Positions 2,854 to 13,060 of a DNA stretch of 24,000 bases are shown here, piece after piece. The notes beneath the pieces were generated by a model. The model saw only the letters and a program-made list of their open reading frames with translations, did not search any database and was not told the DNA's origin. Both the position numbers and the translations under genes were made by a program. Within the stretch, counting starts at the first letter, position 1. Each line of letters opens with the position of its first letter. Where the stretch lies: positions 2,508,760 through 2,532,759 of the forward strand of contig NZ_CP006569.1 in the NCBI RefSeq assembly GCF_000517425.1. The letters are read 5' to 3'. The DNA is from Sodalis praecaptivus (GTDB lineage: Bacteria > Pseudomonadota > Gammaproteobacteria > Enterobacterales > Enterobacteriaceae).

Positions 2854-3147
2854 TTACTGACCCGCGTTCTCATGGTTCATGTCATTCTTTTTCATCATCA
2901 TTGATCCCTGCTGAGCTTGGTTCGGTTTCATCATCATCGTGCCGTCATGCTTATCAGATTTCATCATGGACTGCGGGGCGTCCCCGTTTTTCATGCAGTT
3001 CGGATCCTTGCCATTACCCTGGTGTTGCACACAGGTCTGGGTCTGAGCCGCGGCTGCGTTCTGGGTCGTCGCGTCTGCCGCAAAGACCGACCCCGTAGTG
3101 ACCAGTGAACAGGCGGCGGACAGGGCCAGCATGATTAATTTTTTCAT
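2854..3147 (-). CDS. Secreted methionine-rich small protein (MXKDX-repeat-like / MrpX-like)
   Basis: 97 aa. AAGGAG lies 6 nt upstream of the ATG. Sec-type signal MKKLIMLALSAACSLVTTGSVFA|AD. The mature C-terminal 47 aa contain 10 Met in MMK / MMMK / MMMKK blocks, plus one Cys pair (C-x12-C). Confidence 0.8.
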   Translation of the reverse strand: MKKLIMLALSAACSLVTTGSVFAADATTQNAAAAQTQTCVQHQGNGKDPNCMKNGDAPQSMMKSDKHDGTMMMKPNQAQQGSMMMKKNDMNHENAGQ

Positions 3148-3311
3148 CGCGTTCTCCTTGAGGGGGTGAATACACTGACTGTAACCCTGTCATTGTCCGG
3201 CATACGTGTTCCCCAAAGCCTCGCGTAAACTTAAACAATATGTGATATCTCAACGACGGTAGATGGGGTTGTGTAAACTGCAACAGACAGAAGGCAAAAC
3301 AGAGGGGCATC

Positions 3312-4034
3312 ATGGCCGGGGACACGTTAAAAAAAATCCTGATTGTGGAAGATGATGGCGATATCGCTCATCTTCTTACGCTGCATCTGCATGATGAAGG
3401 ATTTGACATTACGCATGCGCCTGATGGTCATCAGGGCGTCGCCCTGCTGGAACAAGGCGGCTGGGACGCGCTGATTCTCGACCTGATGCTGCCCGGGGTG
3501 GACGGGCTGGAAATATGCCGCCGGGCGCGCAATATGGCGCGCTATACGCCAATCATTATTATCAGCGCCCGCGCCAGCGAAGTGCACCGCGTACTCGGGC
3601 TGGAGCTGGGGGCCGATGATTATCTGGCCAAGCCTTTTTCCATGTTGGAATTGGTGGCGCGCGTTAAGGCGCTGTTTCGCCGTCAAGAAGCCATGATCCG
3701 CAATATGAAAATAGATGCGGGTACCCTGAGTTTTTCCGGTCTGGTTATCGACCCCCTCGCCCGCGAAGTCCATCTGGATAAACGGCCCGTGGAGCTGACG
3801 CCGCGCGAATTCGATCTCCTCTATTTTTTCGCCAAACATCCCGGCAAAGTGTTTTCACGCCTGAGCCTGCTCAATCACGTTTGGGGCTATCAGCATGAGG
3901 GTTATGAGCATACCGTCAACACGCACATTAATCGGCTGCGGCTCAAAATAGAACGCAATCCGGCGGAGCCGGAACGCCTGCTGACCGTCTGGGGCATGGG
4001 GTATAAATTCGCTCCCGCAATTGACAATACATAA
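3312..4034 (+). CDS. OmpR/PhoB-family two-component response regulator
   Basis: 240 aa. Receiver domain (ILIVEDDGDI...LILDLMLPGVDG...ADDYLAKPF) plus winged-helix output domain (LTPREFDLLYFF...VWGMGYKF). Confidence 0.95.
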   Translation: MAGDTLKKILIVEDDGDIAHLLTLHLHDEGFDITHAPDGHQGVALLEQGGWDALILDLMLPGVDGLEICRRARNMARYTPIIIISARASEVHRVLGLELGADDYLAKPFSMLELVARVKALFRRQEAMIRNMKIDAGTLSFSGLVIDPLAREVHLDKRPVELTPREFDLLYFFAKHPGKVFSRLSLLNHVWGYQHEGYEHTVNTHINRLRLKIERNPAEPERLLTVWGMGYKFAPAIDNT

Positions 4035-4044
4035 GAAGCCCGCC

Positions 4045-5550
4045 ATGAACAATATGACTCTCTCCCGGCGTCTGGTGCTGGCCTTTACCGCGCTGCTGTT
4101 GGCCAGCTGCTTTATTTCCGGTTTTTTGCAGGTGCGCTCCGCCAATGAATACAGCCAGGGCGTTATACAGCGCCTATCGGCCAATCTGGCCGCACAGATT
4201 GCCAGCAATAACCCGCTGCTGAGCGAGGACGGGCTGAATCAAGCCTCGGTCCATTCCCTGTTTGGCCAGTTGATGTCGGTGAATCCGAGCGTGGAAGTTT
4301 ATCTGTTGGATCAACAGGGCAACATCATCAGCAGCGCCGCGCCAGCAGGGAAAATTCAGCAAAAAACCGTTGACCTACGGCCGATTCAGGCGCTGCTCGC
4401 CGGCGCGCAGATGCCGGTATATGGCGATAACCCGCGCGATCCCAAGACCCGCCAGGTCTTTAGCGTGGCGCCGCTGAAAATGGGCGATAGGGTCAAAGGC
4501 TACGTCTACATCGTGCTGCTCGGCGAGCATTACACAATGCTCTCAAGCCAGGCGCAATATCTGTCGGCGATAGGGATAACCCTGCGCTCGATGGTGCTGG
4601 TCATCATCTTCGGCACGCTGGCGGGGATCCTTGCCTTTCGTTGGGTCACCAAACCGATGCGCCAGCTGGCGGCGCAAATCGCCACCTTAGATAAAGGGGG
4701 AATGGGGGCTATTCAGGCGCTGGCGCAAAGCACCCCGTCCGCCGATGCGCCGCGCGATGAGATAGCCCTGATCCAGCAGGCGTTTGTCAGCCTCGCTCAG
4801 CGTATTGATCAACAGTGGCAAAGCCTGAAGACCCAAGATCGGCTGCGTCGGGAATTTATCGCAAATGTCTCGCACGATCTGCGCACGCCGCTGACGTCGT
4901 TGCAGGGTTATCTGGAAACGCTGTCGGTAAAATCCTTAAGCCTCAGCGAAGCGGAGCGCCAGCGCTTTTTGGATATCGCCGTGCATCAGAGCCGAAAAGT
5001 GAGCCGGCTGGCGCAAGAGCTGTTCGAGCTGGCGCGGTTGGAATACGGGGTGGTCGAACCCAAAAAAGAGGCATTCTCCCTGGGTGAACTGGTTCAGGAT
5101 GTGTTAGAGAAATTTGCCCTGACCGCCGAGGCACGCCAGCAGCGGCTGGTGGCCGCCATGCAGCCGGGTCTGCCGCTGGTCTATGCCGATTTGGGCATGA
5201 TCGAGCGGGTCCTGACCAATTTATTGGATAACGCCGTCCGCCATACGCCAAAAAATGGCCAGATTGATATCCGCCTTTCGACGCGGCAGGATGAGGTAAT
5301 AGTGCGCCTCCAGGACAGCGGGCCGGGGATTGCTGATGAGCTCAAAGAGAGTTTATTCGTTCGTCCGTCGGTTCTCAGTCAGCAACGCTACCGTCCCGGT
5401 GGGCTCGGGCTGATGATTGTGCAACGTATGTTGCTGCTGCATAACAGCGTTGTCTCGCTGGTGGATGCCCCGCAAGGGGGCGCCTGTTTCGAGTTTGCTC
5501 TTACCGCACTGAGTCAGAAAAACAGCGGGCCGACCCGTCTTGAAAGGTGA
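4045..5550 (+). CDS. Sensor histidine kinase (two TM segments, ~150-aa periplasmic domain, HAMP, HisKA, HATPase_c)
   Basis: H-box FIANVSHDLRTPLTSLQGY, N-box LLDNAVRHTP, G1 DSGPGI, G2 GGLGLMIV. TM1 is around LVLAFTALLLASCFISGF and TM2 around MVLVIIFGTLAGILAF. The start is placed at ATG 4045. The track start, TTG 4021, would overlap the regulator gene. Confidence 0.9.
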   Translation: MNNMTLSRRLVLAFTALLLASCFISGFLQVRSANEYSQGVIQRLSANLAAQIASNNPLLSEDGLNQASVHSLFGQLMSVNPSVEVYLLDQQGNIISSAAPAGKIQQKTVDLRPIQALLAGAQMPVYGDNPRDPKTRQVFSVAPLKMGDRVKGYVYIVLLGEHYTMLSSQAQYLSAIGITLRSMVLVIIFGTLAGILAFRWVTKPMRQLAAQIATLDKGGMGAIQALAQSTPSADAPRDEIALIQQAFVSLAQRIDQQWQSLKTQDRLRREFIANVSHDLRTPLTSLQGYLETLSVKSLSLSEAERQRFLDIAVHQSRKVSRLAQELFELARLEYGVVEPKKEAFSLGELVQDVLEKFALTAEARQQRLVAAMQPGLPLVYADLGMIERVLTNLLDNAVRHTPKNGQIDIRLSTRQDEVIVRLQDSGPGIADELKESLFVRPSVLSQQRYRPGGLGLMIVQRMLLLHNSVVSLVDAPQGGACFEFALTALSQKNSGPTRLER

Positions 5551-5573
5551 AAAAGCGCCAGCGCAAGTGACGC

Positions 5574-6293
5574 TTAACCTTTCACCAAGACCGGCGCGGT
5601 GCTCCACAGCGCCGGGAACGACTTTTTCAATTGCTGAAGCTTTGGCAGATCGTTGATGACGATGTAGGGATAGTCCGGGTGGTTATTCAGGAAGTCCTGA
5701 TGGTCGTTTTCCGCGGGATAGAACGTCGCATTTTCCTCTATCGTTGTCACCAGCGGTGCGCTAAAACGGTGGCTCTGGTTGAGCTCGGCAAGATACGCCT
5801 TTGCAACTTTCCCCTGCGCAGCACTCAGCGGAAATAACGCCGAGCGGTATTGCGTGCCGTAATCCGGGCCCTGACGGTTGAGCTCCGTCGGGTTGTGCGC
5901 CACGGAGAAGAATATATGCAGCAGTTGGCCGTAGGTGACCCGTTGCGGGTCAAAGGTAACTTGAACCGATTCTGCGTGTCCGGTCAGCCCGGTACTTACG
6001 CTGTCGTAGTACGCGGTGCGGGCCTTACCGCCGGTATAGCCGGACGTGGCGCTGATCACCCCTTTGACGTGCTGGAAGACGCCCTGCACGCCCCAGAAAC
6101 AGCCGCCGGCAAACACGGCGGTTTCCCTTTGCGCCGTCCCCGGCGCTTCGTCCTGCAATGGCGCCGGAATGGCAACGGCGGGTTCGGCTTCAGACCAGGC
6201 GACGGGGTGGAACCCCAGTGCGGCGATAACCAGAACCGACGCGCCGATGCTGAGGATCCGGCGGGAAAAACCAGAGCCGGTCGCTATTTTCAT
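5574..6293 (-). CDS. msrA: Exported peptide-methionine (S)-S-oxide reductase MsrA (single-Cys type)
   Basis: Catalytic motif GGCFWGVQG. N-terminal signal MKIATGSGFSRRILSIGASVLVIAALGFHPVAWSEA. There are three consecutive ATGs at 6299, 6296 and 6293. GAGGAG immediately precedes 6299, so 6293 has the best spacing. The mature protein has only one Cys. Confidence 0.9.
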   Translation of the reverse strand: MKIATGSGFSRRILSIGASVLVIAALGFHPVAWSEAEPAVAIPAPLQDEAPGTAQRETAVFAGGCFWGVQGVFQHVKGVISATSGYTGGKARTAYYDSVSTGLTGHAESVQVTFDPQRVTYGQLLHIFFSVAHNPTELNRQGPDYGTQYRSALFPLSAAQGKVAKAYLAELNQSHRFSAPLVTTIEENATFYPAENDHQDFLNNHPDYPYIVINDLPKLQQLKKSFPALWSTAPVLVKG

Positions 6294-6306
6294 CATCATC
6301 TCCTCG

Positions 6307-8055
6307 CTAACCAAAGGTGAAGGCGTAGGCGTTCACCCCCGCCTCGTCAAACTCAATACTAAAGGTGTGTTCACCGCTGCCGTCGGGCTGACGAATCAGC
6401 TGATACAAGCGCTGTTCCGTCACCGTGCCGCCGCCATCGGCAGCCACATCGGCGCCGTGCATCTCACCCGGCGCACGGCCGTCAATCAGCACTTTAAAGC
6501 GGACGGGATTGCCCGCTTGACTCGGCCCGAGGACCAAATGCAGGTCACGGGCGTGGAATCGATAGATAATCTTGCCGCGCTCGCTATTGAGCGTGATACG
6601 CTCATCGTTGATGGTCCAGCGCCCCGCCAGTCCCCATGCATTGAGCGGTAGCGTAGCCGGTTTGACATAATCCGCCGCCCTGTCCGCCCTCACCTCGCCG
6701 GAGGCGAAATTTTCCGCCCGGCTATAGCCGAGATAGGTTTCCGGCGAAATGTCGTACTGGCCGCTGGCCGCCTGCTCTACCCCCGTAGCCGAGACCTGGC
6801 TGATGCTATCAGTGACGTTTTTCGCCCCCGCCTGACGCAACAGCGCCTGGATCACCCGCTCCGATTGGTCATCATCACCTTCGCCAAAATGCGTGTAGCG
6901 GATATGGCCAAAGGCATCAATAAAATAGTGCGCCGGCCAATATTGGTTGTTGAACGCCCGCCAGATGCGGTAGTCGTTATCGATCGCTACCGGGTAGGTG
7001 ACGCCCAGTTTTTTCGCCTCTTTGGCCACGTTATCACTATCTCTTTCAAAGGCGAATTCTGGGGCGTGCACGCCTATCACCACCAGCCCTTGATCGCGAT
7101 ATTTCTCCGCCCAGGCTTTGACATAAGGCAGCGAACGTAAACAGTTAATGCACGAGTAGGTCCAGAAGTCGACCAGCACCACTTTGCCGCGCAGCGACGC
7201 CGTCGTCAGCGGCGGCGAATTCAGCCAGCGCACGGCGCCGTCCAGCGACGGCATCAAGCCCTCATCCGTCAGCGCCGGCGCCTCACCGGCAACGGTTTGG
7301 GCGCTGGCGGGCGCCGGCACGGTTTCCGTCGCGCCGGGCGAGAGTTTTTGCACCAGCGTCTGTTCAATCCCGCCGGTTGAGCTGGTGGAAAGCCGCGCCA
7401 GCACGCCGGTATCCAGCCCAAAGGCGATGGCGACGACGCCCAGCAGCATACCCGCGCCAAGGACACGGCGGATCCACTCCCCGACGCCCAGAGAACGCTT
7501 CATGGCCTTGAAAACCTTGCCGCCTATCAGCAACGCCAACGCAAGCGAGGTCGCGGCGCCTGCCGCATAGGCCAGCAGCAGCAGCGTCGAATTGAGGTTT
7601 GCGCCCTGTAGCGCGGCGCCGGTCAATACCAGCCCCAGGATCGGCCCGGCGCACGGCGCCCATAACAGCCCGGTGGCAATCCCCAGTAAAAACGCGCTGC
7701 CCGCCCCGGCCGATTGACCCGCGGTTATCCGGTTTGACAACGCGTTACCCGCGGACACCAGCGGATGCATTACCCGCTCCGCCAGCCGCGGCAACAGCAG
7801 GGTCACGCCAAACAGCGCCATCAGAATAAGCGCCGCACCGCGTCCGTACTGGTTCGCCGCCACAACCCATCCCCCGCCGACGGCAGCAAGGGTGGCAAAT
7901 AGCGTAAACGTCAGCGCCATACCCGCCAGCAGCGGCAGGCCGCTGCGGATAAAGGGCCTGTCGGCGCGGGCAAAAACAAACGGCAGCACCGGTAAAATAC
8001 AGGGGCTGGCAATGGTCAGCAGACCGCCCAGATACGCAAGAAAGACAACCAGCAT
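6307..8055 (-). CDS. dipZ: DipZ-type protein: CcdA/DsbD membrane electron-transfer domain fused to a periplasmic thioredoxin-fold CxxC domain and a C-terminal DipZ domain
   Basis: TM-domain cysteines in IASPCILPVLPF and LWAPCAGPILG. TlpA/ResA-like motif FWTYSCINCLRSLPYV. ATG 8055 has AAGGA 8 nt upstream; the track start is TTG 8061. Confidence 0.9.
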   Translation of the reverse strand: MLVVFLAYLGGLLTIASPCILPVLPFVFARADRPFIRSGLPLLAGMALTFTLFATLAAVGGGWVVAANQYGRGAALILMALFGVTLLLPRLAERVMHPLVSAGNALSNRITAGQSAGAGSAFLLGIATGLLWAPCAGPILGLVLTGAALQGANLNSTLLLLAYAAGAATSLALALLIGGKVFKAMKRSLGVGEWIRRVLGAGMLLGVVAIAFGLDTGVLARLSTSSTGGIEQTLVQKLSPGATETVPAPASAQTVAGEAPALTDEGLMPSLDGAVRWLNSPPLTTASLRGKVVLVDFWTYSCINCLRSLPYVKAWAEKYRDQGLVVIGVHAPEFAFERDSDNVAKEAKKLGVTYPVAIDNDYRIWRAFNNQYWPAHYFIDAFGHIRYTHFGEGDDDQSERVIQALLRQAGAKNVTDSISQVSATGVEQAASGQYDISPETYLGYSRAENFASGEVRADRAADYVKPATLPLNAWGLAGRWTINDERITLNSERGKIIYRFHARDLHLVLGPSQAGNPVRFKVLIDGRAPGEMHGADVAADGGGTVTEQRLYQLIRQPDGSGEHTFSIEFDEAGVNAYAFTFG

Positions 8056-8088
8056 TGACAAGTTCCTTGTTCTGGCTAGGAAAAAATT

Positions 8089-8610
8089 TTAGGCGTTATC
8101 CGCCGTAAACAGCATTGCCTGGCCATTCATACAATAGCGCAGCCCGGTCGGCGGCGGGCCGTCGGCAAAGACGTGGCCCAGATGTCCCCCGCACCGGCGA
8201 CAATGCACCTCATCCCGCACCACGCCAAACGACGTGTCGCGGCGCGTAGCGACGGCATTTTCCAGCGGCTGCCAAAAGCTGGGCCAGCCGGTATGGCTGT
8301 CGAATTTCGCGGCGGAGGAGAAAACAGGAAGATGACAGCCCGCGCAGGCAAACACGCCCCGGCGATGTTCATCATTCAACGGGCTCGAGTAGGGGGTTTC
8401 CGTGCCCTGTTTACGCAATATGAGGTATTGCGCGGATGTCAGCTGCCGCCGCCACTGCGCATCGGTATGGGTAATGGCAAATTTTTCATCCACCGGCGCC
8501 GCGCCTGTTCCCACGTCAGCGGCAAACAGCGAGGGCAAGCGCCCCGCCGCCGCCAGCCCGAGGGCGAAAACGCCGCCGCCCACCAAAAAATGTCGTCGAT
8601 TTAACATCAT
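8089..8610 (-). CDS. msrB: Tat-exported peptide-methionine (R)-S-oxide reductase MsrB (zinc type, single catalytic Cys)
   Basis: Twin-arginine signal MMLNRRHFLVGGGVFALGLAAAG...LFA|AD. Two CxxC zinc motifs (CAGC, CRRC). Catalytic RYCMNG. HTGWPSF sits where two-Cys MsrBs have GCGWPSF. GGTGAGG precedes ATG 8610; ATG 8607 is also possible. Confidence 0.9.
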   Translation of the reverse strand: MMLNRRHFLVGGGVFALGLAAAGRLPSLFAADVGTGAAPVDEKFAITHTDAQWRRQLTSAQYLILRKQGTETPYSSPLNDEHRRGVFACAGCHLPVFSSAAKFDSHTGWPSFWQPLENAVATRRDTSFGVVRDEVHCRRCGGHLGHVFADGPPPTGLRYCMNGQAMLFTADNA

Positions 8611-8738
8611 CGCCTCACCCATAAAATAAGCAATGATGTCAACTTACAGAGAAAATGCTTACCAAATCCTCCGCAAATGTTCACTTTTTCGTGATAACTT
8701 CTCGGCGGTTTACCGGTGCGTTGCAGGACGCGGCGGCG

Positions 8739-9485
8739 TCAGGGGGCGACCGTACACTGCCAGCGACCGTCGCTGGTGATTTGGCGGGCGTCGATCGTAA
8801 GGGAAAGCTCTGCGTCGGCGAGGTGAAATTGGCTGTATTCCAGTATCGCACCCTCGGCGTTGGCGGCGCGGCGTTCGAGGCGCAGCAGCGGACTGCCCTC
8901 CGGCAGCGACAGGATCCGGGCCAGCCGGGCGCTGCACAATGCCGGCACCACGCTGTCGCAGGCCTTGACCGGTGAGAAACCGTAGCTTTCGCACAGCTGG
9001 GCATAAAGCGAGCGTCCCTCTTCAATATGGCTCAGGCCGCTATAGGCGCTACCGTCCAGCCAGGTGACGCCATGACCCACCACCCGCCCGTCCTGCTTTA
9101 CATACCGCTCAAGGCGCTGCAGCTGGCTGCCGATGGCCAGACCCATTTTCACGCCGATATCGCCATCGGCCATGGTTGGCATCAGCGACTCGATTTCAAG
9201 GGCGACCGGCGCGCTGCCGGTAAAGCGCAGCAAGAGATCGGGTAAGTTGCTGTAGTAATGTTGCAGAATATCGCGATTGATAAAGGTGCCCCGGCCCTGT
9301 TCGCGAAACAGAATGCCGGTCTGCACCAGCGCATCGATGGCCTGTTTGACCGTGCCGCGCGCCACGTTGAACTCCCCGGCCAGTACCAGCTCGCCGGGCA
9401 GTTTTTCAACATAAGAAAAAGCAATAATCCGTTCCAGAATGATGTTTTTTATCCGCAAGTAAAGCGGTAGGCCCAGAGGCTCCAT
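8739..9485 (-). CDS. GntR-family (HutC subfamily, UTRA effector domain) transcriptional regulator
   Basis: I start the track ORF 8739-9620 at ATG 9485 (MEPLGLPLYLRIKNIILERI...LPGELVLAGEFNVARGTVKQAIDALVQTGILFREQGRGTFI). The length of 248 aa is typical of HutC-type regulators. The upstream extension would overlap the SIS gene. Confidence 0.9.
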   Translation of the reverse strand: MEPLGLPLYLRIKNIILERIIAFSYVEKLPGELVLAGEFNVARGTVKQAIDALVQTGILFREQGRGTFINRDILQHYYSNLPDLLLRFTGSAPVALEIESLMPTMADGDIGVKMGLAIGSQLQRLERYVKQDGRVVGHGVTWLDGSAYSGLSHIEEGRSLYAQLCESYGFSPVKACDSVVPALCSARLARILSLPEGSPLLRLERRAANAEGAILEYSQFHLADAELSLTIDARQITSDGRWQCTVAP

Positions 9486-9498
9486 GCTGTCGCCTTCA

Positions 9499-10239
9499 TC
9501 AAAGATAGTGGATCTGGCTGTGATAGCGGTTAAATATATCCTGATTGATCTTCTGATTGCCGTCAATGTTGGCGCTGGCCAATACCGGCGGCGGTTGCCG
9601 GTGGGCCAGCATGATTTCACTGATGCGGATCACCAAGAGATTGCCGATAGTCGCCCCCATAACTGTAGAGAGCGGCGCCACTTTTTGGTCAAGGGACGGC
9701 AGGCTTACGGCCGCGTCGCCATAGTCGCACAGGTTATCGATAACCACCTCCGCCACCTCGCATAATAGCTTGCCCGACGCGTGGCGCGGGCTGACCCGTT
9801 CGGCGGTCGCCAGGCTGGTAATGGCAATGACATGGGCCCCGCGCGCGCGCGCGCTTAGCGCCACATCGAGCGGCACCGCATTGCGGCCGGATACCGAATG
9901 GATAAGCACCACGTCCCCCGCCGCTATCGGCGACGCCTGCACCAGCTCGCGTCCGAGCCCTTCCACGTTCTCCAGCGCGCTGGTCAAGGGTAGCGGCCTG
10001 ACGTTTAACATTAGCGCGGGGCAAAACAGCGGATTGACGATCGCCAGTCCGCCGGCGCGATAACACAGCTCTTCGGTTAGGATACCCGCATGGCTGGCGC
10101 CAAAAACAAACAGCTTGCGGCCGTTGAGGGCGGCATCGGCCATCAACGCGGCGGCCGCGTCTAAAGAGGGGGCGCTACTCTCGAGCCGATCCAGCCTGGT
10201 GCGGATGGCCTGCACATAAGCGTCGGTTGCTTTACTCAT
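9499..10239 (-). CDS. SIS (sugar-isomerase / phosphosugar-binding) domain protein, UPF0309-like
   Basis: 246 aa. NGRKLFVFGASHAGILTEE and VVLIHSVSGRNAVPLDVALSARARGAHVIAITS are SIS-fold signatures. Confidence 0.8.
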   Translation of the reverse strand: MSKATDAYVQAIRTRLDRLESSAPSLDAAAALMADAALNGRKLFVFGASHAGILTEELCYRAGGLAIVNPLFCPALMLNVRPLPLTSALENVEGLGRELVQASPIAAGDVVLIHSVSGRNAVPLDVALSARARGAHVIAITSLATAERVSPRHASGKLLCEVAEVVIDNLCDYGDAAVSLPSLDQKVAPLSTVMGATIGNLLVIRISEIMLAHRQPPPVLASANIDGNQKINQDIFNRYHSQIHYL

Positions 10240-10256
10240 CCTGTTTCCCCTGCGGC

Positions 10257-11567
10257 TTAAAAGGTGAGAAATTTACCGATGAAGGCAATCAACGGCGCCA
10301 GCACGAACATGTCGCTGTCGCCGGCCCATAGCGCGGTATCGGGGATAGTGTTATTGATAAGATAGCTCACGCAGAAATACTGCCCCCATGCCACCAGCGT
10401 GGAGGTAAAAAACCCCGCCAGCAGCGCGCCTTTATAGCCCCCTGTCACGTTACCGAACACCCCGGCGGTGCCGGCATGGAAAAAAATCACGATCATACTG
10501 GGGATAAAGACATATCCGGTGGTGGTACCGATAACCATCAGCCACAGCAGGGAGCCGGCGAACGCGCCGATAAACCCCAAGACTACGGCGTTGGGGGCAA
10601 AATTGAAAATAATCGGACAGTCCAGCGCCGGTCGCGCGCCCGGCACCAGCCGCGTTCCGATGCCGTTAAACGCGGGCACCATTTCGCCGATAAACATGCG
10701 CACCCCGAGCAACACCACCGCGATCCCGCCGGTAAACAGCAGCGACTGCTTGAGCGCGAAGATATAAAAGCTCAGATCGCCGGACTCGCCCAGGATTTCC
10801 TGCGCTTTAGGCGAACCTTTAATTTGCAGCAGCAAGGTGCCAATAAAAAACAGCAGCGTCATGGTCAGGGCGGTCACCACGTTCGAGTCGCGCAAAAAGC
10901 CCAGGTTTTTCGGCACCTTAATATCTTCGGCGCTCACCTTGTGGCGGGCGAAAAGATTGCCCGCCAGCGCGCCGAGCAGCGCCACCGAGGCGGATGAGTG
11001 GCCGAGCGCCACGTTATCGTTGCCGGTAATGCGCCGTACCCAGGGCTGTACCAGCGCCGGCTGGAAGGTCCAGTAAACGCCCAGGATCAGCGACAGCGCA
11101 AGCGTAAGCGTCACCGGCGATACGTCCGGCCGCTTGTTGACAATGACCCCGGCGAAGATCATGGCAGTCCAGAACATCATATGTCCGGTCAGGTAAATGT
11201 ATTTAAAGCGCGTCAGCCGCGCCAGCAGCAGGTTAATGGCAAAACCCGCGGCAATGGCGATGGTCACACTGCTGCCGTAACGCTCGCTGAAATGCGTCTG
11301 TCCCATGATATGGGTCAGGCTCATTTGCTGCAGGCCAAACACCTCCGTCCAGATGGGCTGGAATATCAGCAGCGCAGCAACGATAATGCTGGCGCCCGCG
11401 CCGATTATCAAAAATCCCAGGATGCCTTTTAACGTGCCGGAGACGATATCCGCCAGCGGCTTATGTTGCAGCACCAGGCCCAACAGCACGATAAGCCCTA
11501 TCAGTATTGAGGCCTCGCCGAAAATATTGACCGTTATCCAGTGCAGAACATGAATGAAATCGCTCAT
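10257..11567 (-). CDS. PTS ascorbate-family (UlaA/SgaT-type) EIIC permease
   Basis: 436 aa polytopic membrane protein. The N-terminus (IFGEASILIGLIVLLGLVLQHKP...TLKGILGFLIIGAGASII) resembles E. coli UlaA. Its ATG overlaps the EIIB stop (ATGA at 11564-11567). Confidence 0.9.
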   Translation of the reverse strand: MSDFIHVLHWITVNIFGEASILIGLIVLLGLVLQHKPLADIVSGTLKGILGFLIIGAGASIIVAALLIFQPIWTEVFGLQQMSLTHIMGQTHFSERYGSSVTIAIAAGFAINLLLARLTRFKYIYLTGHMMFWTAMIFAGVIVNKRPDVSPVTLTLALSLILGVYWTFQPALVQPWVRRITGNDNVALGHSSASVALLGALAGNLFARHKVSAEDIKVPKNLGFLRDSNVVTALTMTLLFFIGTLLLQIKGSPKAQEILGESGDLSFYIFALKQSLLFTGGIAVVLLGVRMFIGEMVPAFNGIGTRLVPGARPALDCPIIFNFAPNAVVLGFIGAFAGSLLWLMVIGTTTGYVFIPSMIVIFFHAGTAGVFGNVTGGYKGALLAGFFTSTLVAWGQYFCVSYLINNTIPDTALWAGDSDMFVLAPLIAFIGKFLTF

Positions 11568-11848
11568 GACGCGTCTCCCTTGAACAGCCCGGAAGCGACC
11601 AGCGCGCGCTCGATTTCTTGTTGATCAATGAAGTTATTGACCACGACCACCGGGCAGGCGAGATGGCGCAGACCGGCGACAAACTCGCTATGGGTCACCA
11701 CCAGGTCGGCGCTGGCCGACGCCGCGGAGGAAACGTCCATATGCTCGACGGAGGCACCGTGCCCCAGCTTGCGCAATACCGTTTCCACGTTCATTTTCAG
11801 GATTAGGCTGGAGCCCATCCCTAAACCACAGACGGTTAAAATTTTCAT
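11564..11848 (-). CDS. PTS EIIB component (UlaB-like)
   Basis: 94 aa. MKILTVCGLGMGSSLILKMNVE carries the phospho-accepting Cys in the C-G-x-G-x-G-S-S loop. A GAGGAAAG RBS is present. Confidence 0.85.
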   Translation of the reverse strand: MKILTVCGLGMGSSLILKMNVETVLRKLGHGASVEHMDVSSAASASADLVVTHSEFVAGLRHLACPVVVVNNFIDQQEIERALVASGLFKGDAS

Positions 11849-11898
11849 ACGCTGCTTTCCTCAGTAACGGCAAACTCGCCGGCAATAGCGCCTAGGCA

Positions 11899-12330
11899 TC
11901 AAGATGTTTGAAACAGGTGTAACAGGTCGTCGCGCTCACGGCTGGTCATCAAAATAGTTCGTTTTGACGTTTCGCCCAGCACGGTAACAACGCGCTGTAT
12001 CAGCGCAATATGACTGTCGCCGTCGGTCGCCGACAATCCGATAAGCACCGACACCGGGTCGTTTTCGTCGTGGCCGAACGTGAGCGGGGTGGCCAGACGC
12101 ACCAGGCTTATCTGCGCCCGCCGTGCGCCCTGCTGCGGGCGCGCATGCGGCATGGCCAACCCCGGCGCGATGACAAAGTAGGGACCGAACTGATGGTAAT
12201 TTTCCACCATCGCCCGCACGTAGGCGTCATTGCAGGCCCCTACGTCCTTTAAGGCGTCCCCCGCCGCGGCGATCGCCTGCTCAGGCGTGGCGGCGTCGCA
12301 ATGGGTGACGACAGCGTTAGGATCTATCAT
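11899..12330 (-). CDS. PTS EIIA component (mannitol/fructose/ascorbate EIIA-2 type, UlaC-like)
   Basis: Started at ATG 12330 (MIDPNAVVTHCDA...). The active-site His context is FVIAPGLAMPHARP. The track extension to 12387 overlaps the creatininase gene. Confidence 0.85.
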   Translation of the reverse strand: MIDPNAVVTHCDAATPEQAIAAAGDALKDVGACNDAYVRAMVENYHQFGPYFVIAPGLAMPHARPQQGARRAQISLVRLATPLTFGHDENDPVSVLIGLSATDGDSHIALIQRVVTVLGETSKRTILMTSRERDDLLHLFQTS

Positions 12331-13060
12331 GGGCCGTTTCCTCCAGGTGCCGCGTGAGTGACGCCAAGGTGGCATGGAAAGCGGCATCCACCAGCGCCCG
12401 GCCTTTTTCCGCGCTGGCGGCGGTAGGGTCGCCCAGCACCGCGTAATCTGAAAACTCGGTCCAATGTATCGGCCGGGCGTTGAAATTGTCAGGGAAGTCA
12501 GGATAGTGCGCGCGGGCTTGACGCATATCGACGTGTTCCTCGGCTAACGCCAGCATCAGCGAGGTTTCTATCTCTTCGGCATGCATGTAGCCGGCACGGG
12601 CGGTTTTACTCTCTTGCAAGCGGGCCACGGCCTCCGCCATGCCCGCCCAGCTGTAGCTCAGCAGATGCATATCGTGCTCCTTCAGGTGGCGCGCGGCGCT
12701 TTTGATGGCGTCGAAGTTGCCGTAGTGCGCATTGATAACGGCCATGCTGGTAATGCCGTAACCCTGCATATTGCGCGCCAGCGCTATCAGCAACGCCGTG
12801 AGCAGATCGTTACCGAGATCGATCGCGCCCGCATGACCGCGTAACGACCAGACCTGGCCATAGGGCACCGCCGGCAACGTGAGCGCAACCTCCCCTAGCG
12901 CGGCATCCAGCCTGGCGCAAAAGCGTTCCGCCAGTAGATTATCGGTCGCCAGCGGCAGATGATCGCCATGGGGTTCGGTCGCGCCGAGGGGCAGCAGAGC
13001 AATACGCGCCCGCGTCAGCGCCTGCTTTGCCTGGCTTTCGTTAAGGAGATCGAGTCGCAT
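12317..13060 (-). CDS. Creatininase-family metal-dependent amidohydrolase
   Basis: Started at ATG 13060 with an AAGGA RBS, directly after the upstream stop at 13071. Motifs LLPLGATEPHGDHLPLATD, INAHYGN and MHAEEIETS match creatininase-family metal and catalytic signatures. Confidence 0.85.
   Translation of the reverse strand: MRLDLLNESQAKQALTRARIALLPLGATEPHGDHLPLATDNLLAERFCARLDAALGEVALTLPAVPYGQVWSLRGHAGAIDLGNDLLTALLIALARNMQGYGITSMAVINAHYGNFDAIKSAARHLKEHDMHLLSYSWAGMAEAVARLQESKTARAGYMHAEEIETSLMLALAEEHVDMRQARAHYPDFPDNFNARPIHWTEFSDYAVLGDPTAASAEKGRALVDAAFHATLASLTRHLEETAHDRS

What the first reader, a model, noticed from the sequence alone, without database searches (positions are those of the whole stretch)
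2854..8610. Candidate thiol-driven periplasmic methionine-oxidation scavenging/repair system: Met-rich peptide, two-component sensor and exported MsrB-DipZ-MsrA
Three transcription units are juxtaposed. (i) 2854-3147(-) encodes a Sec-signal peptide whose mature C-terminal 47 aa hold 10 Met. (ii) 3312-5550(+) encodes an OmpR-type regulator and a periplasm-sensing HAMP kinase, divergent from (i) across a 164-bp shared control region. (iii) 8610-5574(-) is msrB-dipZ-msrA, convergent on the kinase gene. Both reductases carry export signals. DipZ combines a CcdA/DsbD-type membrane electron channel with a periplasmic CxxC thioredoxin-fold domain. Together these are all the parts needed to oxidise and re-reduce methionine outside the cytoplasm using cytoplasmic thiol reducing power. 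Known systems each cover only part of this: Azospira suillum MrpX (a Met-rich periplasmic peptide acting as a hypochlorite sink, recycled by the molybdoenzyme YedY/MsrP), E. coli MsrPQ under the HprSR two-component system, the pneumococcal CcdA-Etrx-MsrAB system, and Neisseria PilB with DsbD. To my knowledge the combination here is not an experimentally described system in Enterobacterales-like bacteria: a sacrificial Met-rich peptide, thiol-based rather than molybdenum-based exported MsrA and MsrB, a dedicated DipZ and a dedicated sensor pair. My inference is an inducible envelope oxidant (HOCl, chloramine, H2O2) scavenging cycle.
Basis: partly seen in the sequence, partly recalled or inferred. 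Interest (0 to 1): 0.8.

Follow-up and report, generated by a model that had tools for sequence, protein, structure and literature searches.

The report
Envelope methionine-repair regulon with thiol reductases
In this Sodalis praecaptivus segment, a two-component sensor related to the oxidant-sensing OrhK/OrhR pair of uropathogenic E. coli appears to control two things: a secreted methionine-rich peptide, and an exported thiol-powered MsrB-DipZ-MsrA operon that should repair oxidised methionine outside the cytoplasm. This pairing is not described in the papers I could search, and it recurs in many other bacteria.

Summary
In detail: all six genes and their domains are present as described.

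- **Known precedent.** The sensor pair plus Met-rich peptide is a published Enterobacterales module. The regulator is 65% and the kinase 45% identical to UPEC OrhR/OrhK, which activate an MsrQ-like/MsrP-like/Met-rich-peptide operon in response to peroxide (PMC8550376). About 70 of 80 orthologous loci keep that molybdenum-type operon. The window has lost it and keeps only a diverged peptide.
- **Adjacency is lineage-specific, but the regulatory link is not.** None of those 80 loci has msrB-dipZ-msrA within 10 kb. A weight matrix built from the family's operator gives only two hits in the 24-kb window: the peptide/regulator control region and the msrB promoter. None of 300 simulated windows reached the msrB-promoter score.
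- **The operator recurs.** It lies upstream of unlinked msrB-dipZ-msrA or dipZ-msrA operons in Serratia, Cedecea and Buttiauxella. In 24 of 35 metagenomic msrB-dipZ loci the same sensor family sits next to the operon.
- **The full three-part set recurs** in three other loci.

Verdict: a new variant of a known kind. Its function has not been tested experimentally.

The parts
2854..3147 (-). Secreted Met-rich peptide: 97-aa precursor, 74-aa mature form with 10 Met, 7 Lys and 2 Cys. It is the positional counterpart of UPEC C3568 and the MXKDX peptides, but of a diverged 'MMMK' type.
   Evidence: ORF. Composition. 26-32% identical to canonical peptides and 43-48% to the L091 and L088 peptides. No match to TIGR02953.
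3192..3197 (-). Putative -10 hexamer (GACAAT) of the peptide promoter. Inferred only.
   Evidence: It occupies the same column as the conserved AATACT, TAAGTT and TAnGCT hexamers in the aligned promoter classes.
3208..3252 (.). Operator box 1 (core 3219-3249: CCTCGCG-N-TTAAAC-N-TGTGATATC), shared by the divergent peptide and RR promoters.
   Evidence: Top weight-matrix hit in the window at 41.3 bits. It contains the counterpart of the published OrhR inverted repeat TCACA-N15-TGTGA.
3274..3279 (+). Putative -10 (TAAACT) of the RR-HK promoter, within the conserved TTGTGTAGACT element. Inferred only.
   Evidence: The element is conserved in all orthologous loci, including those that lost the divergent operon.
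3312..4034 (+). OmpR-family response regulator of the OrhR type.
   Evidence: Pfam. 65% identical to UPEC OrhR. 83-87% identical to most of the Yersiniaceae/Erwiniaceae orthologues among the 80 loci, falling to 73-81% in Hafnia, Buttiauxella, Cedecea and other more distant ones. Below the cutoff of every named NCBIfam RR model, including HprR.
4045..5550 (+). Sensor histidine kinase of the OrhK type: periplasmic sensor domain between two TM helices, then HAMP, HisKA and HATPase.
   Evidence: Pfam. 45% identical to UPEC OrhK over its full length. Sensor-domain conservation.
5560..5574 (-). Weak hairpin with a T-rich tail after msrA, in the 23-nt gap between the convergent msrA and HK genes.
   Evidence: Consensus scan only.
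5574..6299 (-). Exported MsrA (241 aa) with a Sec-type signal and a single Cys (Cys67, in GCFWG).
   Evidence: PF01625 184 bits and TIGR00401 167 bits. N-terminal comparison. Cys count.
6307..8055 (-). DipZ (582 aa): CcdA-like six-segment membrane domain (Cys19, Cys135), periplasmic Trx-fold domain (C302-INC-305) and a DipZ C-terminal domain.
   Evidence: Pfam. M. tuberculosis DipZ 2HYX at 8e-64 and CcdA 5VKV/2N4X. Cys positions and hydropathy. 100% identical to the S. praecaptivus protein.
8089..8610 (-). Exported MsrB (173 aa) with a twin-arginine signal, two CxxC zinc-type pairs, the catalytic Cys160 (RYCMN) and no resolving Cys.
   Evidence: PF01641 154 bits and TIGR00357 161 bits. Conserved start and RR motif. 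Cys positions.
8641..8646 (-). Putative -10 hexamer (TAAGTT) of the msrB promoter. Inferred only.
   Evidence: Same position relative to the operator as in the other promoter classes.
8657..8701 (.). Operator box 2 (core 8668-8698), oriented so that msrB takes the place of msrQ or the peptide gene.
   Evidence: Second-best weight-matrix hit in the window at -3.2 bits, with the third-best at -41.4. None of 300 simulated windows reached it: maxima -39.7 +/- 5.6, best -21.5. Homologous boxes lie upstream of msrB or dipZ in L085, L086, L088, L090, L091, L093, L094 and L095.

Best explanation
The region is one oxidative envelope-stress regulon of Sodalis praecaptivus, run by a two-component system of the OrhK/OrhR family.

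**Sensing and activation.**
- The kinase senses a periplasmic oxidative cue. This is inferred from the UPEC orthologue, which responds to peroxide.
- It phosphorylates the OmpR-type regulator.
- The regulator binds an operator of about 30 bp (CCTCAC-N6-GTTAA-N6/7-GTGATAAC) that abuts the -35 position of its targets.
- It thereby activates two promoters here. One drives the secreted Met-rich peptide and shares its operator with the regulator's own promoter. The other drives msrB-dipZ-msrA.

**Repair pathway.**
- MsrB is exported folded through Tat, and MsrA through Sec.
- DipZ takes electrons from cytoplasmic thioredoxin across the membrane through its CcdA-like cysteine pair (C19/C135) to its periplasmic CxxC (C302/C305).
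- That CxxC directly reduces the sulfenic acid formed on the single catalytic Cys of MsrA (S-sulfoxide) and of MsrB (R-sulfoxide).
- Together these proteins replace the molybdenum MsrP/MsrQ-like pair that most relatives keep under the same regulator.

**Peptide.** It most likely acts as an oxidant sink that these reductases recycle.

**What is shown here:** gene content, family membership, the shared operator, and its conservation and association across genomes.

**What is inferred:** the inducing signal, regulator binding, export, the electron path, and the peptide being a substrate.
For: **Regulator family.**
- RR 65% and HK 45% identical over full length to UPEC OrhR/OrhK.
- OrhR binds the c3566 promoter region in an EMSA, and OrhK/OrhR activate c3566-c3568 on tert-butyl hydroperoxide exposure.

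**Family context.**
- 70 of 80 orthologous loci have MsrQ-like and MsrP-like genes divergent from the RR.
- 71 of 80 have a Met-rich peptide ORF.

**Operator.**
- It is conserved across these loci and includes the published inverted repeat.
- The weight-matrix scan of the window gives only two outliers: 3208-3252 (41.3 bits) and 8657-8701 (-3.2 bits), with the next hit at -41.4. None of 300 simulations reached the second.

**Independent loci.**
- S. proteamaculans: 15.1 bits upstream of msrB. S. marcescens: 23.4. Cedecea dipZ-msrA: -7.8. Buttiauxella: -19.2. Background in these loci is -37 to -45.
- The same architecture with two boxes occurs in L088 and L091.
- Pseudomonas sp. L094 has the TCS directly divergent from msrB-dipZ-msrA, with a 27.7-bit box.

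**Metagenomes.**
- 24 of 35 msrB-dipZ loci have the OrhR-like RR adjacent, and 25 of 35 have the box.
- Only 1 and 2 of 34 DipZ loci without an upstream msrB do so (Fisher p = 4.6e-9 and 1.2e-8).
- L126 carries peptide, TCS and msrB-dipZ-msrA with two boxes.

**Promoter geometry.** A -10-like hexamer lies at a fixed distance from the operator in all promoter classes.

**Enzymes.**
- Domain matches.
- Minimal cysteine complement.
- Conserved Tat motif in MsrB and Sec-type signals in MsrA.
Against: - There is no expression, binding or biochemical data for this organism.
- Box 2 in the window is among the weaker copies. Its left half reads CCTCCG rather than CCTCAC, and its absolute score is negative because the matrix was built from very similar sites.
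- 0 of 80 orthologous TCS loci in species genomes have the msr operon nearby.
- Some dipZ-msrA or dipZ-only loci lack the box: Sodalis ligni, Ewingella and Rouxiella.
- The peptide does not match the MXKDX model and has a lower Met density, 13% against 18-21%. It could be a decaying remnant.
- In UPEC the tested phenotypes were assigned to c3566/c3567, not to the peptide.
- The Tat-signal model score is below its cutoff.
- The DsbD_TM Pfam match is below its gathering score.
Confidence: 0.65

Rival explanations
1. Co-regulated repair only. The sensor pair controls the exported MsrB-DipZ-MsrA pathway, which repairs oxidised envelope proteins in general. The Met-rich peptide is not a recycled sink. 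It would be a remnant left when the MsrQ/MsrP-like genes were lost, or it has another role, such as a chaperone-like one or involvement in signalling to the kinase.
For: - The peptide fails the TIGR02953 model, while relatives score 35-104 bits.
- Its Met density is lower than in canonical peptides.
- Nearly all Pseudomonas-like TCS-msrB-dipZ-msrA loci have no peptide at all, so the enzymes do not need it.
- The UPEC phenotypes were mapped to c3566/c3567.
Against: - The ORF, its signal peptide, the MMMK blocks and the operator are conserved in three species at 43-48% identity.
- Peptide-only loci arose repeatedly (L009, L064, L084), which suggests the peptide is useful on its own.
- The Azospira homologue is described as a sacrificial HOCl sink, as quoted in PMC8550376.
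Confidence: 0.2
2. Metal (copper or silver) stress module. The kinase senses Cu/Ag, the Met-rich peptide binds Cu(I) through its thioethers, and DipZ with the reductases protects or repairs periplasmic thiols and methionines during copper stress.
For: - The kinase aligns over its full length to the heavy-metal sensor model TIGR01386, but at 139 bits against a cutoff of 293. The RR scores 162 against 279 on TIGR01387.
- Met-rich motifs are typical Cu(I) ligands (general knowledge).
- A paper found (PMC9302797) links periplasmic MsrPQ repair to copper stress in E. coli, judged from its title and abstract only.
Against: - The scores are far below the family cutoffs.
- The periplasmic sensor domain has no conserved His or Cys and only one conserved Met across 108 family members. 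I recall CusS binding metal through His, Met and Phe residues. That is from memory and was not checked here.
- The characterised orthologue responds to peroxide.
- The conserved targets are methionine sulfoxide reductases of two unrelated chemistries.
Confidence: 0.1
3. Chance juxtaposition. The msr operon and the sensor/peptide module are functionally unrelated neighbours, and DipZ serves cytochrome c maturation, as its database name suggests.
For: - 0 of 80 orthologous TCS loci have the msr operon nearby.
- Many sources name the protein 'cytochrome c biogenesis protein DipZ'.
- GC content is higher over the msr operon (0.61-0.64) than over the TCS (0.55-0.58).
Against: - The operator upstream of msrB is far beyond chance.
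- It is conserved upstream of unlinked operons.
- TCS adjacency occurs in 24 of 35 metagenomic loci, p about 5e-9.
- dipZ is packed tightly between msrB and msrA, with gaps of 33 and 7 nt.
Confidence: 0.03

Closest known systems
UPEC CFT073 OrhK/OrhR (C3564/C3565) with c3566-c3567-c3568 (Gu et al. 2021, PMC8550376)
   Same: - The same sensor/regulator family: 45% and 65% identity, the same domain order, and the same operator with the TCAC...GTGA repeat next to the -35.
- A divergent target promoter.
- A Sec-exported Met-rich peptide as a target.
- An envelope methionine sulfoxide repair theme.
   Different: - The UPEC target enzymes are an MsrQ-like cytochrome b and an MsrP-like molybdoenzyme. 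Here they are absent from the locus.
- A Tat/Sec-exported thiol system, MsrB-DipZ-MsrA, carries the operator instead.
- There is no link to hemolysin.
- The peptide here is a diverged MMMK type.
Azospira suillum MrpX with YedY/YedZ (Melnyk et al. 2015, PMC4436054; known to me through its title and abstract and its citation)
   Same: The concept of a periplasmic Met-rich peptide as an oxidant sink, encoded together with a periplasmic methionine sulfoxide reductase.
   Different: - It is controlled by an ECF sigma factor, not a two-component system.
- Its reductase is the molybdoenzyme.
- The window peptide is not detectably a member of the MXKDX family.
E. coli HprSR with MsrPQ
   Same: A two-component system that induces periplasmic methionine sulfoxide repair in response to oxidants.
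   Different: - A different regulator lineage: the HprR model scores 152 bits against a cutoff of 353.
- A molybdenum enzyme.
- No peptide.
Extracytoplasmic thiol-based Msr systems: Neisseria Trx-MsrAB with DsbD, Haemophilus influenzae MsrAB with Trx/CcdA under RpoE2, Streptococcus pneumoniae CcdA-Etrx-MsrAB2, Fusobacterium nucleatum MsrAB with Trx/CcdA under a two-component system (review PMC13488963; PMC3914529)
   Same: - The same logic: an exported Msr fed by a CcdA/DsbD-type membrane electron transporter and a Trx-fold protein.
- The DipZ Trx domain matches the Etrx and PilB Trx structures.
   Different: - Those systems use fused MsrAB proteins with a separate Trx, or a Trx fused to the Msr.
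- Here MsrA and MsrB are separate single-domain, single-catalytic-Cys enzymes with different export routes (Sec and Tat).
- CcdA and Trx are fused in one DipZ protein.
- The regulator is of the OrhKR type, and a Met-rich peptide belongs to the regulon.
Mycobacterium tuberculosis DipZ (PDB 2HYX, 5CYY)
   Same: The same architecture of the soluble part (Trx-fold plus C-terminal domain) at E = 8e-64, with a CcdA-like membrane domain.
   Different: I found no evidence that the mycobacterial protein serves Msr enzymes. Here the gene sits between msrB and msrA.

Membership tests
OrhK/OrhR-type two-component regulon | OmpR-family RR and periplasm-sensing HAMP kinase closely related to C3565/C3564 | tested here: met
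   65% (RR) and 45% (HK, full length including the sensor domain) identity. Sensor-domain motifs are shared across 108 family members.
OrhK/OrhR-type two-component regulon | Operator with the inverted repeat TCACA-N15-TGTGA next to the -35 of the target promoter | tested here: met
   The window has TCGCG-N15-TGTGA inside a 45-nt conserved block scoring 41.3 bits. A second, diverged copy lies upstream of msrB.
OrhK/OrhR-type two-component regulon | Divergent target operon encoding an MsrQ-like cytochrome b, an MsrP-like molybdoenzyme and a Met-rich peptide | tested here: not met
   Only the peptide gene follows the promoter. The 164-bp intergenic region leaves no room for remnants. 70 of 80 relatives have the full operon.
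OrhK/OrhR-type two-component regulon | Induction by peroxide and direct RR binding | not testable with these tools
   Shown only for UPEC.
Pentapeptide MXKDX repeat / MrpX-like peptides (TIGR02953) | Match to the family model above its cutoff (41 bits) | tested here: not met
   No hit at E <= 10. The Rahnella-type peptide scores 104.5 bits and UPEC C3568 scores 35.2.
Pentapeptide MXKDX repeat / MrpX-like peptides (TIGR02953) | Sec signal, Met/Lys-rich low-complexity mature part, and a position under the same promoter | tested here: met
   Signal ending VFA|AD, 10 Met and 7 Lys in 74 residues, two conserved Cys, same position relative to the operator.
Pentapeptide MXKDX repeat / MrpX-like peptides (TIGR02953) | Acts as an oxidant sink that an Msr re-reduces | not testable with these tools
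   Needs biochemistry.
DipZ (CcdA-Trx-DipZ_C fusion) | CcdA/DsbD-type membrane domain with one Cys in each of two helices | tested here: met
   DsbD_TM scores 21.6 bits, below the gathering score of 27.1. Supported by CcdA structures 5VKV/2N4X at E about 2e-5, about six hydrophobic segments, and the SPC/APC motifs, which are invariant in 11 orthologues.
DipZ (CcdA-Trx-DipZ_C fusion) | Periplasmic Trx fold with CxxC, plus the DipZ C-terminal domain | tested here: met
   Redoxin 48 bits, Thioredoxin_10 170 bits. M. tuberculosis DipZ 2HYX at 8e-64. The CINC motif is invariant.
MsrA / MsrB | Family models above cutoff and catalytic motifs present | tested here: met
   TIGR00401 scores 167 (cutoff 108) and TIGR00357 scores 161 (cutoff 113). 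GCFWG and RYCMN are present.
MsrA / MsrB | Extracytoplasmic location | tested here: inconclusive
   MsrB has a conserved RR-x-F-L motif with a hydrophobic region and an AxA site, but TIGR01409 is below its cutoff. MsrA has a Sec-like N-terminal extension with GCFWG at about residue 55-77. No signal-peptide predictor was available.
HprSR-MsrPQ | RR and HK are HprR/HprS equivalogs | tested here: not met
   The HprR model scores 152 bits against a cutoff of 353.
Heavy-metal sensor systems (CusRS, CopRS, SilRS) | Match to TIGR01386/TIGR01387 above cutoff | tested here: not met
   139 against 293 bits and 162 against 279 bits. No conserved His or Cys in the sensor domain.

The most novel reading that the evidence does not exclude
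A widespread and so far undescribed third route of periplasmic methionine sulfoxide repair exists in Gram-negative bacteria. It consists of single-domain MsrB (Tat-exported) and MsrA (Sec-exported) fed by a DipZ CcdA-Trx fusion. It is a primary and possibly ancestral target of the OrhK/OrhR sensor family in Pseudomonas-like bacteria and in many Enterobacterales. In the Sodalis group it has taken over from the molybdenum MsrP/MsrQ-like enzymes as the partner of a secreted Met-rich sacrificial peptide, which gives a molybdenum-independent, thioredoxin-driven oxidant-scavenging cycle in the envelope.
Probability: 0.45. Interest if true: 0.7.

Novelty: new variant of a known kind. Interest (0 to 1): 0.58.

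Why it matters
- **A different periplasmic repair route.** Periplasmic methionine repair in enterobacteria is usually credited to the molybdoenzyme MsrP. A 2026 review says single-domain MsrA and MsrB are mostly cytoplasmic and lists only fused MsrAB proteins as exported. This locus, with the comparative data around it, points to an exported thiol-based MsrA/MsrB/DipZ pathway. Orthologues occur in Serratia, Cedecea, Buttiauxella, Sodalis and Pseudomonas-like bacteria.
- **A larger regulon for a known virulence-linked sensor.** The pathway appears to be wired to the same sensor family that controls a virulence-linked oxidant defence in uropathogenic E. coli. That gives the sensor family a second and probably broader regulon, and a defined operator to test.
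- **A natural experiment.** In one clade the molybdenum enzymes are replaced by thiol enzymes while the Met-rich peptide is kept. That bears on whether such peptides really work as recyclable oxidant sinks.
- **Host association.** Sodalis praecaptivus is the free-living relative of insect symbionts, so envelope oxidant defence may matter for its association with hosts.

Tried and rejected
- **HprSR identity.** Rejected: the HprR model scores far below its cutoff.
- **Heavy-metal sensor identity.** Rejected as family membership, and the sensor domain has no conserved His or Cys. It is kept only as a low-probability rival.
- **Neighbourhood test with the kinase sensor domain in species genomes**. 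It returned no msr operon next to any of 80 TCS loci. On its own this would have refuted the link, so I turned to operator analysis and to searching from the DipZ side.
- **Window's own species.** It was absent from the genome collection (best hit 68%). P0001 could not be located by the look-up of encoding contigs.
- **Plasmid search.** It gave the first lead (Kacie_13 plasmid) but no msr-linked locus.
- **Literature searches.** Searches for DipZ with MsrA and MsrB, for periplasmic MsrA/MsrB, and for twin-arginine with MsrB found no description of this operon. The Barnum preprint on chlorine biology had nothing specific.
- **Search for a C3567-type MsrP-like protein of S. praecaptivus**. No Sodalis-named hit was in the top 120, but most entries are unnamed, so this is inconclusive.
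- **GTAAACT direct repeats.** An early reading of these repeats in the control region as the binding site was dropped in favour of the conserved operator.
- **Consensus promoter scan.** It found nothing useful in the two control regions, as expected for activator-dependent promoters.
- **Structure prediction.** Not used, because it would not discriminate between the hypotheses.

Full report
**1. What is in the sequence**

The window comes from Sodalis praecaptivus: its DipZ protein is 100% identical to the public S. praecaptivus protein on a 4.7-Mb contig.

- **Peptide.** 2854-3147(-) encodes a 97-aa precursor with a Sec-type signal ending VFA|AD. The mature part has 74 residues, with 10 Met (all within the last 47 residues), 7 Lys and 2 Cys.
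- **Regulator.** 3312-4034(+) is an OmpR-family response regulator.
- **Kinase.** It is a HAMP/HisKA/HATPase protein with a periplasmic sensor domain. Its conserved start is ATG 4045.
- **Reductase operon.** On the minus strand, msrB (8089-8610), dipZ (6307-8055) and msrA (5574-6299) are packed with gaps of 33 and 7 nt.
- **DipZ.** It has a CcdA-like membrane domain, a Trx fold and the DipZ C-terminal domain. It matches M. tuberculosis DipZ at 8e-64 and CcdA structures. It has exactly four cysteines: SPC, APC and CINC.
- **MsrA and MsrB.** MsrA has a single Cys (GCFWG). MsrB has two CxxC pairs plus the catalytic RYCMN Cys. Neither has a resolving Cys.
- **Export signals.** MsrB starts MMLNRRHFL, and this twin-arginine motif is conserved in essentially all orthologues. 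MsrA orthologues carry variable Sec-type signals.

**2. The sensor pair and peptide are a known module**

A plasmid of an Enterobacteriaceae isolate has the same sensor pair, 74% identical in DNA. There it is divergent from a cytochrome b gene, a molybdopterin oxidoreductase gene and a 'pentapeptide MXKDX repeat protein' gene.

This is the layout of the UPEC OrhK/OrhR locus. In UPEC, OrhR bound the c3566 promoter region in an EMSA. OrhK/OrhR activate c3566 (MsrQ-like), c3567 (MsrP-like) and c3568 (a Met-rich peptide homologous to MrpX) on exposure to tert-butyl hydroperoxide and inside macrophages (PMC8550376). The window's regulator is 65% identical to OrhR, and its kinase is 45% identical to OrhK over the full length.

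I scanned species genomes with an alignment of the sensor domain and obtained 80 orthologous loci from Rahnella, Ewingella, Rouxiella, Serratia, Erwinia, Buttiauxella, Cedecea and others.
- 70 have the MsrQ/MsrP-like pair divergent from the regulator.
- 71 have a Met-rich peptide ORF.
- Peptide-only loci like the window also occur in Sodalis sp. dw_96, Hafnia paralvei and a Buttiauxella MAG.

The window peptide itself does not match the MXKDX model. Relatives score 35-104 bits. It belongs to a diverged 'MMMK' type shared with two related loci.

**3. Is the msr operon part of it?**

By neighbourhood alone the answer looked negative: none of the 80 loci has msrA, dipZ or an exported msrB within 10 kb.

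The divergent control regions, however, share a strongly conserved block, GTTCCCCAAGACCTCACGCAAAGTTAAATAAAATGTGATAACTC, which contains the published OrhR inverted repeat. I built a weight matrix from 64 distinct copies and scanned both strands of the window.
- Top hit: the peptide/regulator control region (3208-3252, 41.3 bits).
- Second: 8657-8701, immediately upstream of msrB (-3.2 bits).
- Third: -41.4 bits.
- In 300 simulated windows the maximum averaged -39.7 +/- 5.6 and never exceeded -21.5.

The msrB-proximal copy is oriented so that msrB occupies the place of msrQ or the peptide gene.

**4. Independent confirmation from other genomes**

DipZ orthologues (70-85% identical) occur in many Enterobacterales.

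| Locus | Organism and arrangement | Box score (bits) |
|---|---|---|
| L085 | Serratia proteamaculans, msrB-dipZ-msrA between speA and speB, far from the sensor genes | 15.1 |
| L090 | Serratia marcescens, same position | 23.4 |
| L086 | Cedecea, dipZ-msrA | -7.8 |
| L093 | Buttiauxella, dipZ-msrA | -19.2 |
| L087, L089, L092 | Rouxiella silvae (dipZ alone); Sodalis ligni and Ewingella (dipZ-msrA) | none |
| L088 | [Pantoea] beijingensis, same architecture as the window | 45.8 and -6.9 |
| L091 | Metagenomic contig, same architecture as the window | 41.1 and 14.8 |
| L094 | Pseudomonas sp., sensor pair directly divergent from msrB-dipZ-msrA | 27.7 |

Background scores in these loci were about -37 to -45. 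L088 and L091 repeat the window exactly: msrB-dipZ-msrA convergent on the kinase and regulator genes, with a divergent MMMK-type peptide.

A metagenome scan with a DipZ alignment generalised this.
- Of 35 msrB-dipZ loci with enough upstream sequence, 24 have the OrhR-like regulator adjacent (69-75% identical) and 25 have the box.
- Of 34 DipZ loci without an upstream msrB, only 1 and 2 do.
- Fisher p values are 4.6e-9 and 1.2e-8.

One contig, L126, has an MXKDX peptide, the sensor pair and msrB-dipZ-msrA in a different order, with two boxes.

**5. Mechanism**

All promoter classes share the core CCTCAC-N6-GTTAA-N6/7-GTGATAAC. A -10-like hexamer lies at a fixed distance on the target side: GACAAT for the peptide and TAAGTT for msrB in the window. 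This places the operator against the -35 position, which is the usual geometry for activation by OmpR/PhoB-type regulators. It also agrees with the UPEC report that the repeat lies immediately upstream of the -35.

The proposed pathway is as follows. All of it is inferred.
1. An oxidative cue in the periplasm activates the kinase.
2. The phosphorylated regulator switches on the peptide gene, its own operon and msrB-dipZ-msrA.
3. MsrB is exported by Tat, which is plausible for a zinc-binding protein that folds before export. MsrA is exported by Sec.
4. DipZ carries electrons from cytoplasmic thioredoxin through C19/C135 to C302/C305.
5. The Trx domain reduces the sulfenic acid on the lone catalytic Cys of each reductase.
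6. MsrA (S-sulfoxide) and MsrB (R-sulfoxide) together cover both diastereomers. From title and abstract alone, a preprint listed (10.1101/243626) reports that MsrP reduces both diastereomers, so the pair can stand in for the missing MsrP-like enzyme.

Whether they recycle the peptide is not shown.

**6. Rivals**

- **Metal-sensing role.** Disfavoured. Scores against the heavy-metal sensor models are far below cutoff. The sensor domain has no conserved His or Cys and a single conserved Met. Copper and HOCl were never tested in UPEC, so the signal remains open.
- **Repair-only reading**, in which the peptide is a remnant or has another role. This is the main alternative, because the Pseudomonas-like loci have no peptide.
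- **Chance juxtaposition.** Effectively excluded.

**7. Novelty**

Known elements:
- the OrhKR family and its Met-rich peptide;
- MrpX as an oxidant sink;
- thiol-based extracytoplasmic MsrAB systems with CcdA or DsbD in Neisseria, Haemophilus, Streptococcus and Fusobacterium;
- DipZ.

Not found in the searchable literature:
- an exported pair of single-domain MsrA and MsrB with DipZ;
- its control by the OrhKR family;
- its combination with a Met-rich peptide in place of the molybdoenzyme.

I class it as a new variant of a known kind, of moderate-to-good interest. The comparative evidence is strong, but nothing has been tested experimentally in this or any related organism.

Noticed in passing
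window 6000-8500: GC content is 0.61-0.64 over msrB-dipZ-msrA, against 0.55-0.58 over the sensor genes and the peptide gene. This could reflect foreign origin of the operon or simply the composition of membrane-protein genes.
   Followed up: no
window 2854-3147 and peptide ORFs in L005-L084, L088, L091: The Met-rich peptides keep two cysteines about 10-20 residues apart in the mature N-terminal half (window residues C39 and C51 of the precursor). This holds even though the rest of the sequence is low-complexity and diverges quickly. No explanation so far.
   Followed up: partly
L037; protein P0050: A contig labelled Pseudomonas lundensis I31 carries a locus laid out like the Serratia loci and with near-identical percent identities to the window proteins. 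A DipZ protein labelled P. lundensis also looks like the Serratia DipZ proteins. This is probably contamination or a mislabel.
   Followed up: no
L045 14375-15710; L055 14357-15710: Serratia bockelmannii and S. ureilytica have a second MsrQ-like/MsrP-like pair about 5 kb downstream of the sensor genes, in addition to the divergent one.
   Followed up: no
L066, L074, L075 (upstream of the RR at about 9100-9290): These Buttiauxella, Enterobacter and Dryocola loci keep the sensor pair but have neither the peptide nor MsrQ/MsrP-like genes. An SDR-type gene ends right at the control region. Only the regulator-proximal half of the operator and the TTGTGTAGACT element survive.
   Followed up: partly
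L003 (E. coli ETEC H10407 plasmid p666); one search counts: In E. coli the sensor/MsrQP-like/peptide module is found in 349 of 5426 complete genomes, 71 places on plasmids. In ETEC H10407 it lies a few kb from the heat-stable enterotoxin gene sta1 and is flanked by IS elements.
   Followed up: no
window 4045-4600 (kinase sensor domain): Across 108 family members the periplasmic domain conserves LM.VNPSVEVYLLD, P.YGD.PR, VFS.APL and GY.Y.VLLGE. It has one conserved Met (M85 in ORF numbering) and no conserved His or Cys. The single Met is a candidate oxidation sensor, but this is speculation.
   Followed up: partly
window 8739-12387: Upstream of msrB lie a GntR/UTRA-type regulator gene (by synteny with L091) and further ORFs whose families I did not check. 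The GntR gene also neighbours msrB in L091. No operator copy was found there, so these genes are probably not part of the system.
   Followed up: no
L085 and L090 (Serratia), about 5300-5490 and 7300-7490: In Serratia the msrB-dipZ-msrA operon is inserted between speA and speB, which I recall as adjacent genes in E. coli (from memory, not checked here). A speA terminator-like hairpin lies just before the operator.
   Followed up: no
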